From: Podarcis muralis
Lineage: Eukaryota
Reading direction: 5' to 3'
Assembly: GCF_964188315.1 (NCBI RefSeq)
Contig: NC_135656.1
Coordinates: 31,248,001 to 31,312,000, forward strand
DNA: 64,000 nucleotides
Program-made: the position numbers
Shown here: positions 17,301 to 23,300 of the stretch, one piece after another
How positions within the stretch are numbered: position 1 is the stretch's first letter
How the letters are laid out: each line of letters begins with the position of its first letter

Positions 17301-20300
17301 AGCACAAACTCCCACTAATGTACCACCCCTCGCTTTCTGACGTTGGCTCTTCGCCACAACCAGCACTTCACCAACATCCCAGTTTCCCGATCATTCCCAT
17401 GCTGCTCCTGTACTCTTACTTTCAGTGTGTTCCTTAGGAAGATACACATCAAGCTTCTCTCCCTCGCCCAACCCGTAGGGCACATTCAGCAGAGTTTGGG
17501 TGCCAATCTGGGCACGGCGGGTACCTGCAGAGCAGAGGAAGGCACAGAGAGATGGAAGTCCACAGCTTGCCTGGCCACATCTGGGCTGCCCTACCACACT
17601 CCAGAGGAGTTTTCAGATTGTCGGTGCCTGTCCTCGTTCAAAACTTCGGAAAACTGGGGTAGGCTTTGCCACCTCTATACAGGCCCATTCTTAAGGAAAT
17701 TATCCCTGAGTGTTCACTGGAAGGACAGATCCTGAAGCTGAGACTCCAATACTTTGGCCACCTCATGAGAAGAGAAGACTCCCTGGAAAAGACCCTGATG
17801 TTGGGAAAGATGGAGGGCACAAGGAGAAGGGGACGACAGAGGACAAGATGGTTGGACAGTGTTCTCGAAGCTATCAGCATGAGTTTGACCAAACTGTGGG
17901 AGGCAGTGGAAGACAGGAGTGCCTGGTGTGCTCTGGTCCATGGGGTCACGAAGAGTCGGACACAACTAAATGACTAAACAACAACAACAAAGCAGACATT
18001 CTGGGGGAATTTTCATTGCTCCTCACCACTATGAGATGAACACGACGAAACGACTAAACAACAATACAGTCCCAAGGGGAAGAAACCTTCCTCGCAAGTT
18101 CCAAAGGAGTGCCTTCTTTCCAATCCCTCTTCAGAACCTCCTGTGAGATTTTGCCCTCTCTTGCACTGGAGGTGAGCTGGCCCACTAGAACTTCTGTGGC
18201 CAGAGTGCATCCTCAGGGTTGCTTAACTGCTAAAGCATAACTGATTCATGTTCAGTGACCCTGGGTATGCAGTCTTGCTTAAGGATAAACATGCCCTTCT
18301 TGCTGGATCAGTACCAGGTCCACCAACTCTAGGGCTCTTTGCAAGAATGCCAACAACCAGCTGGCCCTGGGAGATCTGTTGGAAGTTAGTGGCCCCTTGG
18401 TGATCTGCCCGCTCCCATCCCACTTATTGCCAGGTAGTGGACTGCCCAGGGACCCTTTACCTTCGCTCATTGCCTGTACGTGAGCCTCAATCACAGCATC
18501 TGCATCCAGCCGGGGAGACCACCTGCTAGGGGAGTACTGCTTCTCCAGCTCCTGCAGAGAGAGGAAGCAAGGCACCTTGCACAGCCACAGTGGCGGCCCT
18601 CTTTTCACTCAGAGTAAGGTGACTAGGGCGCTGAGTAGAAACACAGGCAGACTGGGTGCCAAACGAAGCATTGCTAAGTAAGTAGCATGCAGCTATGCAT
18701 TTCTTACTTAATAACAGGCACGCCATGGAAGAAGAAGAAGGTTTCTCAAACGAACCTTCATTATTAGAAAAAGTGTTATTACAAAACAAAACTAAGGTAA
18801 TATCAAAAATGTATGATACATTATTGGAGTGGGAGGTCAAAGACGAACAGGTCAAGGAGGTAATGATATTGGGAAAACCATTAACTTAACAGCATGGGAA
18901 GAATTATGGAGAAAGAACAGGAAATTTACAGCCTGTGAAGTAATGGGGGGAAATCTAATCAAGATGTTTTATAGATGGTACTTAACACCTACCAAAATAG
19001 CTAAAATGTATAAGACAAAAACAAATCTGTGTTGGAGGTGTGGTAAAACAGAGGGGACACTTATACATGTTTGATGGACCTGTGAAAAAAATCAAAAGCT
19101 TCTGGAACATAGTATATGACAATCTTAAAAAAATGTTTAAGTATAACTTTATAAAAAATACAGAAGCTTCTCTACTAGGGATAACGGACGCAGGTATAGC
19201 AAGAGAAGATCAGAAAATATTCCTCTGTGCTACAGGAGCGGCAAGGATCCTAATTGCTAAAAACTGGAAAAAAGAAATTGTGCTAACAAAAATGGAATGG
19301 CAAGACAAACTGTTAGAGTATATTGAACTGGCTAGATTAACAGAGGCAATTAGAGATCAAACTAGACAAGAATTTCAAAAAGCATGGGGAAAATGCAGAG
19401 AATACTTTACAAAACAGTGCCCTAAAATTCATACCTGGACTTGTTTTCATCAATGTCTGCAGGAGACTTTGTGGATATTTAAGTTATAATTAGGAAAATC
19501 TTAATGATTATTCATAAAGGAAACCGCTTATAAGAAGTAAATAAGGATGCCAGAAACAGGATAAAGGAAGTCTTTTATTTGGTTGTTTGTATTGTTGTAA
19601 ATTATGCTTGTTGTTTGTTATGTTTGTGTCTGAAGGGGGTGGATTTCTGTGTTGGGGGGGTTGTGTTATGTTGTAAATAAAATTTCCAATAAAAAAATAT
19701 ATTTTTTTAAAAAAGGAAGAAGAGTTTGGATTTGATATCCCGCTTTATCACTACCCAAAGGAGTCTCAAAGCAGCTAACCATCTCCTTTCCCTTCCTCCC
19801 TCACAACAAACAGTCTGTGAGGTGAGTGGGGCTGAGAGACTTCAGAGAAGTGTGACTGGCCCAAGGTCACCCAGCAGCTGCATGTGGAGGAGCGGAGAAC
19901 CGAACCCAGTTCACCAGATTACGAGACTACCGCTCTTAACCACTACACCACACTGGCTTTCATGGAGCAGGGATCCCTGTCAGGAAGGCAGTGCATGGGG
20001 ACAGGGGAGAACTTACCAAATGAACCAACCCCACCCTGCACAGCTAAGAAGAAACCTTAGGGGTAAAAGTTCCCATTGATGTTGTGCATATTGAACACAA
20101 CCCTGCAAAGATTTGGGTATTGCTGAGACCACCCTGAAAAATGCAGCTGCTCGATTTAGACATATCTCTGCTTTCAGGATAATGTATGTTTATCTTTCGA
20201 ACGTTGCCCAACAGTTCTTCCTCCCACATTTCCCCTTGTGTATATCATTTCCATTTCCACATATCTGATGTACAAAAGCAATATATCTGCTAGTCCTCTA

Positions 20301-23300
20301 TGCAAGGGTGACTAATGATTAGTATTCTGGGTGTTGTTTGACTCTCATCAGCTCCGGCCAGCATAGCCAACAGTCAGAGATGATGAGTATCCATCCACAT
20401 CTTGAGGGGCCAGGGGTTTGCCATCTTCATCTTAAAGGAGACTTTGTCAGCATCAGTGTAACACAGTTTCTAGAACAGGCATAGGCAAACTCGGCCCTCC
20501 AGATGTTTTGGGACTACAACTCCCATCATCCCTAGCTAATAGGACCAGTGGTCAAGGATGATGGGAGTTGTAGTCCCAAAACATCTGGAGGGCCGAGTTT
20601 GCCTATGCCTGTTCTAGAAGTTCTTTTTCTCGAGGACGTCTCAAATCTTTTCCTGGCTGTAACCACCAAACTCACACAAAACAAGATCTTTCAAAATCTC
20701 TCACACACAGAGGTAATACCATTCCTTCCACCCCCTCCTTTACCTCCTTGGTCATTTCCTGCCACTTTCCCATGTCACCGGCTCAGATGTGGCCTATGCT
20801 GTATCTTCTTACATCCAAGTTTTCTGTGCTGCAGAGCAACTAGTTAGAAGAGCCAGCCATGTGACCCAATTCAGCCTCTGGGTACAAAGTGTAGAACAGA
20901 TCAGGTGTTCCTCCTTGGCCACTGGTTGCTCCATGAGCTGGGGCAGGGTGGGGGGAGAGAAAACCCTGACATAGGGAACTATGCTCTCTGCAAATAAACA
21001 AATCCGTGCTAGGATTTAGGTGGAGGTCAGTCGTATTCGCTCTCAGCACTGACTCCAGAACAGCTATCCCGAGGCAACTGATATCGTCCAGTTACAAGAC
21101 ACAAGCTCAAATCCGTGCACAAAATCAGGGGAAGCTATTTTTGTAGCCAGGTAATTCCCCCCCATCCCAGCCAAAAACAAAAACAAACAAACAAACTCTT
21201 TTTGAGAAGTGATCTTTAAAACTTGCTCACACTGGGGAAACCCAGCCAGATAGGTGGGATATAATAATTTATTATTATTATTATACTCAGAAAAAGATTT
21301 ACCCAATGTAGCAATTCTTGTACTTTCCAATGCACTTAACAAACAACAACCATTGATGCAGACTCTCAGCTCAGTTCGAGGAATACTATTTTTGGATCTG
21401 TGTCCTGGCTGCCAAAGTATGTAAGATCAAAGCGACCTCAGAAATGCTTTAAGCAGCATAACCCACTTAGAAAGGAACAGAACTCCTGAATAGCTCCGGT
21501 TTCCATAGTTTCTCATTGCCTCTTTTTTAGTTATGACGGCGGTGTGCTGCGAAACAACTCTGCAATCCCTCCCTTCTCCTCGGATTCAAATGCACTTTTC
21601 TCCCGCTGTTGTAAAAATGCAGAGTGAGTCTGAGAAAGTACCTCCTCACACATATTTGCATAATGCGGCTCCTTTGAAAATGGAGTGAATTTTGCTCCTG
21701 CAAATGGGGGTGGTGGTGGTGAGGTCAGGTTGTGCAGACATACCAGCGGAAGTGTCTGAATGGGTCTTCTGGTGGGTCCTGGCAGCCCCAACTTCACTGC
21801 CACCCTACCCGGCCTATGTCAAGAGGGCTGATCTACAGTGCTGCTGCATCATGCTGGCCACTCCTAGGCATTAAGTATGCAACAAAATGTTGCTGCATGA
21901 AAAATACTCTGAGTCGAGTGGATTTCATGCTCTTTATTCAGCTCATAGTGGTGAGGAGCAATGAAAATTCCCCCAGAATGTCTGCTTTGTTGTTGTTGTT
22001 TAGTCATTTAGTCGTGTCCGACTCTTCGTGACCCCATGGACCAGAGCACGCCAGGCACTCCTGTCTTCCACTGCCTCCTGCAGTTTAGTCAAACTCATGC
22101 TGATAGCTTCGAGAACACTATCCAACCATCTTGTCCTCTGTCGTCCCCTTCTCCTTGTGCCCTCCATCTTTCCCAACATCAGGGTCTTTTCCAGGGAGTC
22201 TTCTCTTCTCATGAGGTGGCCAAAGTATTGGAGTCTCAGCTTCAGGATCTGTCCTTCCAGTGAGCACTCAGGGCTGATTTCCTTCAGAATGGATAGGTTT
22301 GATCTTCTTGCAGTCCATGGGACTCTCAAGAGTCTCCTCCAGCACCATAATTCAAAAGCATCCATTCTTCGTCAATCAGCCTTCTTTATGGTCCAGCTCT
22401 CACTTCCATACATCACTACTGGGAAAACCATAGCTTTAACTATACAGACCTTTATCTGCTTTATATACATTATTTACACAATGGGCCCCATGTGATTGGC
22501 TAATTCTGGGATTCACCTGTAGGCCAATCTGGTTGCGGATTCACTTCCACCTGGAGCTGGATTGGGTGGCTCCTGTGGACCAATCAGACTGCTGCATTCT
22601 GAATCCTATTGTTCTAGGACCAATCAGACTGCTGCCTTTTGGATCCTATTCAACTCAGTACATAACACTGCATGGTGTTCCACTCAGCCACCCCTTCTCC
22701 CAGGATACTCCATTCCATCCCCGCAAGCTTTCCTACATTTCTCCTCCCATCAGTTAGCATTCCATACCCACCAAGCATTTTCAATCCTCACTGGGTTGGT
22801 TTTGGTGTCCATCCACCCTTTTCGGGACTTCTGCAAACCTTGTGTCTTCCTCCAAGCCTGCCGATACCTTCCTCATGTTGTGGATGGTGCAGTTTTGGCT
22901 GCATCAAGACAAACAGTCAGGAATGAATGAACTATTAGTATTGGATGTCTACCTGCCTGCTACAGGGATGAGAAATCTGCCCCCCTTCCAATGTTGCTGG
23001 TCTGCAACTTCTTTCAGCCCCAGCTACCATGGCACTGATGAGGGTGATGTGATTGTCGTCTGGTTACATCCAGAGGGCCACAGATTCCCTGTCCCTAACC
23101 TGCTAAATCCAGGTATTTAAAAGAACAAAGTGTCTGGTTTAATTTCTCCACAAATAGCTAAGGCAGTTTGATGGGGCTTTGGTTCTGTGAAACTATGGCA
23201 TAAAACCTCTCCTATCCTGGGTCCCCCAATTCTCGGCTGTTTTGCTGCCACTATTCATCGCTCTGTTCTTATTCCTTCCTTCTTCAGATCTTAGCTAAAA

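What the first reader, a model, noticed from the sequence alone, without database searches (positions are those of the whole stretch)
17687..22290. Inverted ~350-bp repeats bracket a frame-neutral AFMID exon pair: predicted dsRNA, exon skipping and a stop-free 147-nt circRNA
Seen: B lies in the intron upstream of exon 21642-21697 and A in the intron downstream of exon 18461-18551, in opposite orientation. The two exons total 56+91 = 147 nt and both outer introns are phase 1. Skipping both keeps the frame (MLCE-S-TRRAQ..). Back-splicing gives GAA G|GA GCA, a 49-codon circle with no stop and two AUGs. Established: intronic reverse-complementary matches promote back-splicing, exon skipping and ADAR editing (the inverted-Alu paradigm). 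Inference: BovB may play this role in squamates. The pair could also invert the two exons by recombination and inactivate AFMID.
Basis: partly seen in the sequence, partly recalled or inferred. Interest (0 to 1): 0.65.

Follow-up and report, generated by a model that had tools for sequence, protein, structure and literature searches.

The report
BovB inverted repeat in lizard AFMID
Two near-identical, oppositely oriented pieces of a BovB jumping gene lie 3.9 kb apart around the first two protein-coding exons of a wall-lizard kynurenine formamidase gene, but the predicted 147-base circular RNA depends on an exon that the gene does not appear to use.

Summary
The inverted repeat is real: 17685-18040 and 21937-22292, 356 nt, 96.9% complementary. 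These are the only two copies in the window and the strongest of 28 inverted pairs.

Both arms are 3' ends of a BovB-type LINE. They are not independent insertions. Arm A also copies about 50 nt of arm B's unique flank, ends in a second BovB tail and has its own target-site duplication. It looks like a chimeric retrocopy of the B locus.

The gene is AFMID. The Podarcis muralis protein maps at 100% identity on most exon pieces. The real first coding exon (MGKWQEMTKE, 20744-20773) was missed. It also lies between the arms.

The pair therefore brackets the start-codon exon and the 91-nt exon. That circle would be 146-176 nt and is not stop-free.

Whether arm B is transcribed with AFMID depends on an unknown transcription start. 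dsRNA, back-splicing, skipping and editing remain plausible but untested. Interest is low to moderate.

The parts
17685..17990 (+). Arm A, BovB part. It holds the last 96 codons of LINE ORF2, the stop codon and a (CAA)4 tail. It is 5'-truncated and antisense to AFMID.
   Evidence: tblastn of P0048 (P. muralis EN+RT ORF2, 998 aa): residues 903-998 match 17687-17974 at 92%. The tail is read. The (CAA)2-6 tail of Bov-B_PMu is from PMC13295347 Table 4.
17991..18040 (+). Arm A, non-BovB extension. It copies the unique DNA that follows arm B's tail, including B's target-site-duplication copy.
   Evidence: The 45-mer at 17991-18035 occurs only here and at 21942-21986, with 0 mismatches. Alignment.
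18040..18064 (+). Second, short BovB terminus with (CAA)2, closing the arm A insertion.
   Evidence: 22/25 identical to 17960-17984. None of 1000 shuffles reached the score.
17677..17687 (+). 5' copy of the candidate target-site duplication of the whole arm A unit. TTT lies at 17665-17667 and a T lies just before the first A.
   Evidence: 10 of 11 identical to 18064-18074. This matches the Tn-TA signature described in PMC13295347.
18064..18074 (+). 3' copy of the candidate target-site duplication of the arm A unit.
21987..22454 (-). Arm B BovB fragment. It holds the last 150 codons of ORF2 (with one internal stop), the terminal stop and a (CAA)4 tail. Its sense strand is the AFMID strand. Only 21987-22292 is shared with arm A.
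   Evidence: P0048 residues 849-998 match 22452-22003 at 93%. The ORF is 88-96% identical to many P. muralis RT proteins.
21937..21986 (-). Native 3' flank of arm B. This is the part that was copied into arm A.
22455..22462 (-). 5' copy of arm B's candidate 8-nt target-site duplication (AAAGCAGA). The 3' copy is at 21981-21988, directly after the tail.
   Evidence: The BovB 5' boundary was fixed independently by the P0048 alignment.
20744..20828 (-). Real first coding exon of AFMID. The ATG is at 20773-20771, it encodes MGKWQEMTKE, and the donor is GTAAAG. The 5' end is unknown: candidate acceptors would start the exon at 20828, 20823 or 20798, or it could be a first exon.
   Evidence: The P0003 N-terminus maps to 20773-20735. 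The motif is conserved in lizards, a turtle and a bird.
18461..18551 (-). Second coding exon of AFMID (91 nt, ELEKQYSPSRW...AMSE). It starts in phase 0 and ends in phase 1.
17420..17524 (-). Third coding exon of AFMID (TRRAQ...KEHTE).
21642..21697 (-). It has an open frame and AG/GT borders but is unsupported. It is most likely a pseudo-exon, or at best an unannotated 5'-UTR cassette.
   Evidence: Absent from P0003. No database protein matched it. No Pfam match. No copy elsewhere in the window.
25546..25558 (-). End of the putative non-coding exon 1. It holds an ATG (MLCE) and the donor GTGAGG. The ATG would start a short upstream ORF in the normal mRNA and is in frame with exon 4 if the two coding exons are skipped.
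   Evidence: The use of this exon is inferred, not shown.
25600..26200 (.). CpG-island-like region shared with TK1. TK1's ATG is at 25806 on the + strand, with 247 bp between it and the 25558 ATG.
   Evidence: CpG observed/expected is 0.57-0.92 here, against 0-0.09 at 20700-20999. TK1 exon 1 ORF is.
20468..20619 (.). Perfect palindrome (64-nt arms, 24-nt loop) in the intron between the two bracketed exons, 125 nt downstream of the MGKW exon's donor.
   Evidence: Hairpin energy is -136.5 kcal/mol.

Best explanation
The window is the TMEM235-like / BIRC5 / AFMID / TK1 region of a wall lizard. It is Podarcis muralis or a very close relative.

Arm B is an ordinary 5'-truncated BovB LINE insertion of about 470 nt. 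It sits in the sense orientation, 1.1 kb upstream of AFMID's first coding exon.

Arm A was made later, roughly 12 My ago on a borrowed substitution rate. The maker was the BovB machinery. Reverse transcription started on a BovB RNA end (25 nt plus tail). It then switched to an RNA of the B locus and copied B's flank, tail and 306 nt of BovB. The product was inserted in the opposite orientation into the intron after the second coding exon.

The result is a 356-bp, 97% inverted repeat bracketing the start-codon exon (20744-20773 plus its 5' part) and the 91-nt exon.

What is shown: the repeat, its LINE identity, the shared non-BovB flank, the target-site duplications, the exon map and the predicted duplex.

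What is inferred: AFMID transcription starts at the CpG island shared with TK1, which would make arm B intronic. In that case the arms would pair in the pre-mRNA. That could favour back-splicing of a 146-176-nt start-codon circle, exon 1 to exon 4 skipping and ADAR editing, most likely as low-level by-products.

For: Repeat. It is the strongest of the 28 inverted pairs in the window and the only one of the 28 with both arms inside AFMID. It is one of 2 of the 28 whose arms are closer than 5 kb.

Duplex: -715 kcal/mol. 347 of 356 arm-B bases pair with arm A in the MFE fold.

LINE identity: the arm B ORF is 88-96% identical to many P. muralis RT proteins. One of them, P0048, carries RVT_1 plus two endonuclease domains. 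P0048's C-terminus maps to both arms and nowhere else in the window. The (CAA)n tail matches Bov-B_PMu (PMC13295347 Table 4).

Origin:
- The 45-nt stretch after the tail is identical in both arms.
- B's 8-nt duplication abuts the tail and the BovB start.
- A has a second BovB terminus, 22/25 identical, reached by 0 of 1000 shuffles.
- A has a 10/11 duplication with TTT about 10 nt upstream and a T before the A (signature from PMC13295347 Results).

Gene model:
- 7 AFMID proteins were found among 195 candidates.
- P0003 maps to the window at 100% identity on 5 of the 10 aligned exon pieces. Mismatches in the others fall where the alignment runs past an exon border or spans an intron.
- The MGKW-type N-terminus is conserved in 6 of the 7 sequences.

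Transcription start:
- The CpG island lies only at 25600-26200.
- TK1 is divergent there.
- In mouse, Afmid and Tk are head to head (PMC4728350 introduction passage).
- A branch-point-like CTAAC, a pyrimidine tract and an AG lie upstream of the MGKW ATG.
- A template RNA in the AFMID sense is needed to make arm A.
Against: - No RNA data of any kind could be examined, so dsRNA, circle, skipping and editing are all untested.
- The 5' end of the AFMID transcript is unknown. In mouse the first coding exon sits next to Tk, so the homologous lizard exon at 20773 could itself be exon 1. Arm B would then be outside the transcript.
- The target-site duplications are short: 8 nt for B, and 10 of 11 for A.
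- The rest of the genome could not be searched for the 45-nt flank.
- The name BovB rests on the paper's description of the tail and on my recall of the ruminant BovB 3' end, not on a phylogeny.
Confidence: 0.6

Rival explanations
1. The MGKW exon (20744-20773 plus a short 5' UTR) is the first exon of AFMID, and arm B lies in the 5' flanking DNA. The two arms are then never in one AFMID pre-mRNA. The repeat would have no RNA-level effect and would matter only as DNA, as a rare substrate for inversion.
For: In mouse the Afmid and Tk start codons are 170 bp apart (PMC4728350 passage), so the homologous first coding exon is exon 1 there. The annotated protein starts in this exon. No transcript evidence for an upstream exon was available.
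Against: The 300 nt upstream of this exon are CpG-depleted, with 0-1 CpG per 200 nt, while the only CpG island is 4.8 kb upstream next to TK1. A good branch point, pyrimidine tract and AG precede the ATG. Making arm A from a promoter-less BovB fragment needs an outside promoter reading through B in the AFMID direction.
Confidence: 0.3
2. 21642-21697 is a used coding exon spliced between exon 1 (MLCE) and the 18551 exon. The pair of 56 + 91 nt is frame-neutral and can form a 147-nt circle with an endless reading frame.
For: The exon has AG and GT borders with a pyrimidine-rich acceptor. Its frame is open and continuous with exon 1 and the 18551 exon. The total is 147 nt, with two in-frame ATGs. 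A Hemicordylus isoform (P0006) shows that alternative 5' exons can join the ELE(K/T)Q exon.
Against: It is absent from P0003 and from all 7 AFMID proteins recovered. No protein matched it at E <= 10. It has no Pfam match. The conserved N-terminal exon lies elsewhere, at 20744-20773. The donor GTACTT is weak by eye.
Confidence: 0.07
3. Arm A arose by a DNA-level inverted duplication, that is, replication template switching or repair synthesis copying 356 nt of the B locus. No reverse transcription was involved.
For: The two copies are only 3.9 kb apart and inverted. This is typical of replication-based template switches. The copied segment crosses the BovB/flank border.
Against: The copy ends in an extra BovB terminus with a (CAA)2 tail. 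It is flanked by a 10/11 duplication with the BovB cleavage signature (PMC13295347). A DNA copy would not be expected to carry either.
Confidence: 0.2
4. Both arms are independent daughters of a third BovB source element whose transcripts read about 50 nt into its flank (3' transduction).
For: The shared sequence beyond the canonical tail ends at the same point in both arms. The 3% divergence equals the mean pairwise divergence of long P. muralis copies (PMC13295347 Table 2).
Against: Arm B's candidate duplication starts directly after the (CAA)4 tail, so the 45 nt look like B's own target DNA. Arm A has an extra terminus that B lacks.
Confidence: 0.1

Closest known systems
Inverted intronic repeats (the inverted-Alu type) that promote exon circularisation
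   Same: Two oppositely oriented copies of a young retroelement lie close to an upstream acceptor and a downstream donor. At 356 nt they are far longer than the 30-40 nt reported as sufficient (PMC4201285, start of the abstract in the listing). circRNA loci are associated with young, species-specific TEs (PMC8516420, abstract).
   Different: No back-splice read has been seen. The upstream arm may not be transcribed with the gene. The element is a LINE fragment plus host flank, not a SINE pair. P. muralis has about 52,000 BovB hits in 1.5 Gb (PMC13295347 Table 1). By my recollection that is far sparser than Alu in human, so such pairs should be rare here.
BovB (RTE-clade) LINE insertions of squamates
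   Same: The ORF2 C-terminus, (CAA)n tail, 5' truncation, and short target-site duplication with T-rich signature match the description for P. muralis (PMC13295347 Results and Tables).
   Different: Arm A is not a plain copy. It carries 50 nt of another locus's flank between two BovB termini.
Chimeric LINE retrocopies made by template switching, and 3' transduction (known for L1; recalled, no paper read)
   Same: A LINE 3' end is joined to a copy of another cellular RNA in the same orientation. The whole unit is flanked by one target-site duplication.
   Different: The second template is itself an old BovB fragment inside a host-gene intron. The product landed back in the same gene, inverted. 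I know of no such report for BovB, and no literature search on this point was made.
Mammalian Afmid/Tk1 head-to-head gene pair
   Same: AFMID and TK1 are divergent neighbours (PMC4728350 passage).
   Different: In the lizard the first coding exon of AFMID lies 5.0 kb from the TK1 start codon. In mouse the distance is 170 bp.

Membership tests
BovB / RTE-clade LINE 3' fragment | Homology to the C-terminal end of an ORF2 with AP-endonuclease and reverse-transcriptase domains | tested here: met
   P0048 (RVT_1, Exo_endo_phos, Exo_endo_phos_2) residues 849-998 and 903-998 map to arms B and A at 93% and 92%.
BovB / RTE-clade LINE 3' fragment | 3' end in a (CAA)n microsatellite-like tail, as in Bov-B_PMu | tested here: met
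   (CAA)4 follows the stop codon in both arms. Table 4 of PMC13295347 gives (CAA)2-6.
BovB / RTE-clade LINE 3' fragment | Target-site duplication starting with A, preceded by T, with TTT about 10 nt upstream | tested here: inconclusive
   Arm A unit: a 10/11 duplication with both signature parts. Arm B: an 8-nt duplication with T before the A but no TTT. Both duplications are short.
BovB / RTE-clade LINE 3' fragment | Placement within the BovB clade by phylogeny or a consensus library | not tested
   No repeat library was on hand. The name rests on the paper's description and on my recall of the ruminant BovB 3' end.
Reverse-complementary intronic pair driving back-splicing | Two arms in opposite orientation with a stable predicted duplex and no stronger competitor | tested here: met
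Reverse-complementary intronic pair driving back-splicing | Both arms inside introns of one pre-mRNA, flanking an exon with an upstream acceptor and a downstream donor | tested here: inconclusive
   Arm A is intronic. Arm B is intronic only if transcription starts at the CpG island. No transcript data were available.
Reverse-complementary intronic pair driving back-splicing | Back-splice junction reads or RNase R-resistant product | not testable with these tools
   No RNA data were on hand.
   Absent from P0003 and the 6 other AFMID proteins. No hit at E <= 10.
   This is compatible only if the MGKW exon is left out.
Kynurenine formamidase (AFMID) gene | Alpha/beta-hydrolase protein matching named and solved kynurenine formamidases | tested here: met
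   P0003 is named kynurenine formamidase and maps to the window at 100% identity on 5 of 10 aligned pieces, with border or intron effects in the rest. Pfam gives BD-FAE and Abhydrolase_3. PDB entry 4e11, kynurenine formamidase, matches at E 1.6e-27 over residues 12-282.
Chimeric LINE retrocopy by template switch | A LINE terminus at the 3' end, a copy of a second RNA upstream in the same orientation, and one duplication around the whole | tested here: met
   That the mechanism was RNA-mediated is inferred.

The most novel reading that the evidence does not exclude
A BovB reverse transcriptase switched from its own RNA onto nascent AFMID intron RNA and pasted the copy back into the same gene, in inverted orientation. 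In one step a LINE would have built a 356-bp dsRNA-forming pair from host pre-mRNA. The pair would now bracket the start-codon exon and act as a switch between three outcomes: normal AFMID mRNA, a small start-codon circRNA, and an exon 1 to exon 4 skipped mRNA. In the skipped mRNA, an upstream ATG (MLCE) becomes the start of an N-terminally replaced enzyme.
Probability: 0.12. Interest if true: 0.55.

Novelty: new member of a known kind. Interest (0 to 1): 0.27.

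Why it matters
If both arms are transcribed together, this would be a clean, single-pair test case for repeat-driven back-splicing. There is no competing repeat within the gene. It would test whether the rule established for Alu, B1 and other mammalian TEs holds in a reptile with a LINE-derived pair, and whether it reaches the start-codon exon of a tryptophan-catabolism enzyme.

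The way arm A seems to have been made is a small but concrete example of how LINE machinery can create intragenic inverted repeats. It appears to be a chimeric retrocopy of an intronic BovB fragment together with its host flank.

As things stand it is a structural curiosity.

Tried and rejected
- the exon-3 peptide alone (30 aa) was below the tool's 40-aa minimum. I re-sent it as an in-frame 50-aa stretch of the window.
Isoforms therefore stayed unchecked.
- the protein atlas look-up for the arm B ORF was not available. I replaced it with the homologue search.
- a Pfam batch failed because one reference held stop codons. I re-sent it without that item.
- Rfam found no family at 12000-27000 at gathering thresholds.
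- A weak peptide resemblance to exon 3 at 25042-25092 (E 0.34) has no DNA-level support. I rejected it as chance.
- An automatic exact-match search for target-site duplications found none for arm A. The 10/11 match was found only when one mismatch was allowed.
- Literature: BovB + circRNA gave 10 papers, and none is about squamate circRNAs by title or abstract start. circRNA + lizard + back-splicing gave 13 papers, 12 listed, none a lizard circRNA study by title. Four spellings of circAFMID gave 0 papers. Afmid + Tk1 + 'bidirectional promoter' gave 0 papers.
- The step of joining exons, or the two circle exons, into one sequence was left out. Junction codons and frames were worked out from each exon separately.
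No other lizard genome or other copy of this locus could be compared.
- The supplementary figures of PMC13295347 hold the P. muralis Bov-B sequences and TSD lists (S3, S6, S8).

Full report
**The repeat**

The repeat finder reports one long inverted pair in 16500-26500. The arms are 17685-18040 and 21937-22292, each 356 nt, 97% complementary, with 3896 nt between them. An ungapped comparison shows 11 mismatches. The longest perfect block is 143 nt.

BLAST of either arm, with flanks, against the whole window finds only itself and its partner (96.9%, E about 1e-171). A 23-nt and a 45-nt motif from the arms each occur exactly twice, and none of 100 shuffles gave two matches. The window holds no N.

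Among 28 inverted pairs found window-wide, this is the longest-times-most-identical one. It is the only one of the 28 with both arms inside the AFMID gene. It is one of 2 of the 28 whose arms are less than 5 kb apart.

As RNA, the arms give a duplex of -715 kcal/mol, against -155 +/- 8 for 20 shuffles.

**What the arms are**

The arm B reading frame (22003-22371, minus strand) is 88-96% identical to many UniRef reverse-transcriptase proteins of Podarcis muralis. One is P0048, 998 aa, with RVT_1 and two endonuclease domains. Only the 8000 best word-sharing candidates were scored and 120 were listed. The unnamed ENA/JGI hits were not used.

P0048 residues 849-998 map to 22452-22003 (93%). Residues 903-998 map to 17687-17974 (92%). 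There is no other hit in the window.

Both arms end with the ORF stop followed by (CAA)4. A 2026 paper on reptilian Bov-B states the following (PMC13295347; I read the Results section, and Tables 1, 2 and 4 as passages):
- Bov-B_PMu ends in (CAA)2-6.
- P. muralis has 52,041 Bov-B hits in 1511 Mb.
- Long copies differ pairwise by 3.0% on average.

I also recall that the arms' last 40 nt or so closely resemble the ruminant BovB 3' end. That is recall, not a test.

The arms are therefore 5'-truncated BovB 3' ends. Arm B's sense strand is the AFMID strand, and arm A is antisense to the gene.

**The arms are not independent insertions**

The homology runs about 50 nt beyond the (CAA)4 tail. The 45-mer at 17991-18035 is identical to 21942-21986.

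For arm B, the protein alignment fixes the BovB 5' boundary at about 22452-22455. The 8 nt just outside it (22455-22462, AAAGCAGA) recur directly after the tail at 21981-21988. This looks like B's target-site duplication. If so, the 45 nt are B's own target DNA.

Arm A carries that stretch and is then followed by a second, 25-nt BovB terminus with (CAA)2 (18040-18064). It is 22/25 identical to 17960-17984, and none of 1000 shuffles reached that score.

The whole arm A unit is flanked by a 10/11 duplication (17677-17687 and 18064-18074). TTT lies 10-12 nt upstream and a T lies just before the first A. This is the Tn-TA signature described for Bov-B (PMC13295347 Results).

My reading, which is an inference: reverse transcription started on a BovB RNA end and switched to an RNA of the B locus. 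It copied 356 nt, and the product was inserted 3.9 kb away in the opposite orientation.

Because B is a promoter-less fragment, its RNA in that sense must have come from an outside promoter reading in the AFMID direction.

With the rate used in that paper (0.0013 per site per My; methods passage), 3.1% divergence gives about 12 My. This is a rough figure.

**The gene model**

Frames and junction codons were worked out from each exon separately.

An in-frame 50-aa stretch around the 91-nt exon recovered 7 kynurenine formamidases among 195 candidates. The best is the P. muralis protein P0003.

P0003 maps to the minus strand from 20773 to 12584. It is 100% identical on 5 of the 10 aligned pieces. 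In the others, the mismatches fall where the alignment runs past an exon border or spans an intron.

Its first 10 residues (MGKWQEMTKE) map to 20773-20744, followed by the donor GTAAAG. The next exon is 18551-18461, and then comes 17524-17420. The same kind of N-terminus (M-x-x-W-x-x-M-x-x-E) is present in 6 of the 7 proteins, from lizards, a turtle and a bird.

It is in none of the 7 proteins. A search with it found 2 word-sharing candidates and nothing at E <= 10 (weak evidence by the tool's own statement). It has no Pfam match.

If it were spliced in front of the MGKW exon, its frame would stop inside that exon's 5' part.

**What the pair really brackets**

Both real coding exons, 20744-20773 (plus its 5' part) and 18461-18551, lie between the arms.

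Arm A lies in the 936-nt intron after the 91-nt exon, 420 nt from its donor. Arm B lies 1108 nt upstream of the farthest candidate acceptor of the MGKW exon.

Three AG sites could start that exon, at 20828, 20823 or 20798. They give circles of 176, 171 or 146 nt. In every case the frame coming out of the 91-nt exon meets a stop in the exon's 5' part. There is no endless frame.

Skipping both exons removes the start codon. The exon-3-encoded segment lies within the region that aligns to a solved kynurenine formamidase (4e11, residues 12-282). The HGGYW motif, which I recall as the oxyanion-hole motif of this hydrolase class, lies further downstream.

One reader point survives. The ATG at 25558 (MLCE, phase-1 end at 25546, donor GTGAGG) is in frame with the phase-1 start of exon 4. 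In the normal mRNA it would only open a short upstream ORF.

**Is arm B transcribed with AFMID?**

This is the main open point.

In favour:
- The only CpG-island-like stretch is 25600-26200. CpG observed/expected is 0.57-0.92 there, against 0-0.09 at 20700-20999.
- TK1 starts there on the other strand. Its ATG is at 25806, with 247 bp between it and the 25558 ATG. Downstream ORFs hit Pfam TK.
- Mouse Afmid and Tk are head to head (PMC4728350, introduction passage).
- A CTAAC branch-point-like motif, a pyrimidine tract and an AG precede the MGKW ATG.
- The retrocopy origin of arm A needs read-through of B in this direction.

Against:
- In mouse the first coding exon itself sits 170 bp from the Tk ATG. 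The homologous lizard exon may therefore be exon 1 with its own promoter.

I put about 0.65 on arm B being intronic.

**Comparison with what is known**

Short inverted repeats suffice for circularisation (PMC4201285; I saw only the start of its abstract, in the listing). circRNA loci are associated with young, species-specific TEs (PMC8516420; abstract and outline only). The roles of inverted Alus in editing and skipping are recalled, not checked here.

Nothing on squamate BovB and circRNAs, or on an AFMID circRNA, turned up. These searches cover only the held library.

**Verdict**

The repeat is real, young and structurally striking, and its origin is mildly unusual. The headline predictions depend on an unsupported exon, and no expression evidence exists. 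Interest is low to moderate.

**Other features seen**

These are listed separately in the field for things noticed in passing: a perfect 64-bp palindrome in the intron between the two bracketed exons, the gene neighbourhood, and a cluster of four direct repeats in the 3' half of AFMID.

Noticed in passing
window 20468-20619: A perfect palindrome with 64-nt arms (100% complementary) and a 24-nt loop. The hairpin energy is -136.5 kcal/mol. It lies 125 nt downstream of the donor of AFMID's first coding exon. It belongs to a palindromic, MITE-like family with diverged copies near 6130-6255, 22992-23096, 36797-36917, 54813-54952, 57156-57276 and 61138-61222. Rfam has no match. It could itself be an editing or Dicer substrate.
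   Followed up: partly
window 1771-2382, 6299-9763, 12584-25558 (minus strand) and 25806-30500 (plus strand): The gene order is a claudin-like gene (Claudin_2 hit; TMEM235 by recall), BIRC5/survivin (BIR domain), AFMID, then divergent TK1 (TK domain). By my recollection this matches the mammalian 17q25 neighbourhood.
   Followed up: partly
window 25546-25871: A short CpG-rich interval with two CCAAT motifs (read on the minus strand at about 25636 and 25697) lies between a minus-strand ATG (25558) and the TK1 ATG (25806). It looks like a shared bidirectional promoter. However, the conserved AFMID start codon is 5.0 kb away.
   Followed up: partly
window 13276-13527, 14359-14714, 15182-15559, 15769-16131: Four same-orientation copies of a repeat of about 360 nt lie within 3 kb of the 3' half of AFMID's introns. 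Each is inverted relative to one copy at 56660-57017, at 72-92% identity. The family was not identified.
   Followed up: no
window 18700-19715 and 19716-19962: Between the two bracketed exons lies a plus-strand stretch with broken ORF pieces and an A-rich end (L1-like by eye, not tested). It is followed by a SINE-like element of about 247 nt that has an inverted copy at 40691-40937, 92% identical.
   Followed up: no
window 8746-8954, 24207-24426, 28069-28289, 29121-29332, 53812-54029: Another dispersed repeat of about 210-220 nt, at 77-94% identity. It has copies in BIRC5, in the AFMID 5' region and in TK1 introns. The copies at 8746-8954 and 53812-54029 are inverted relative to the three at about 24.2, 28.1 and 29.1 kb.
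   Followed up: no
window 25042-25092 (minus strand): A weak peptide resemblance to AFMID exon 3 (10 of 19 residues, E 0.34). It has no DNA-level similarity and is taken as chance.
   Followed up: yes
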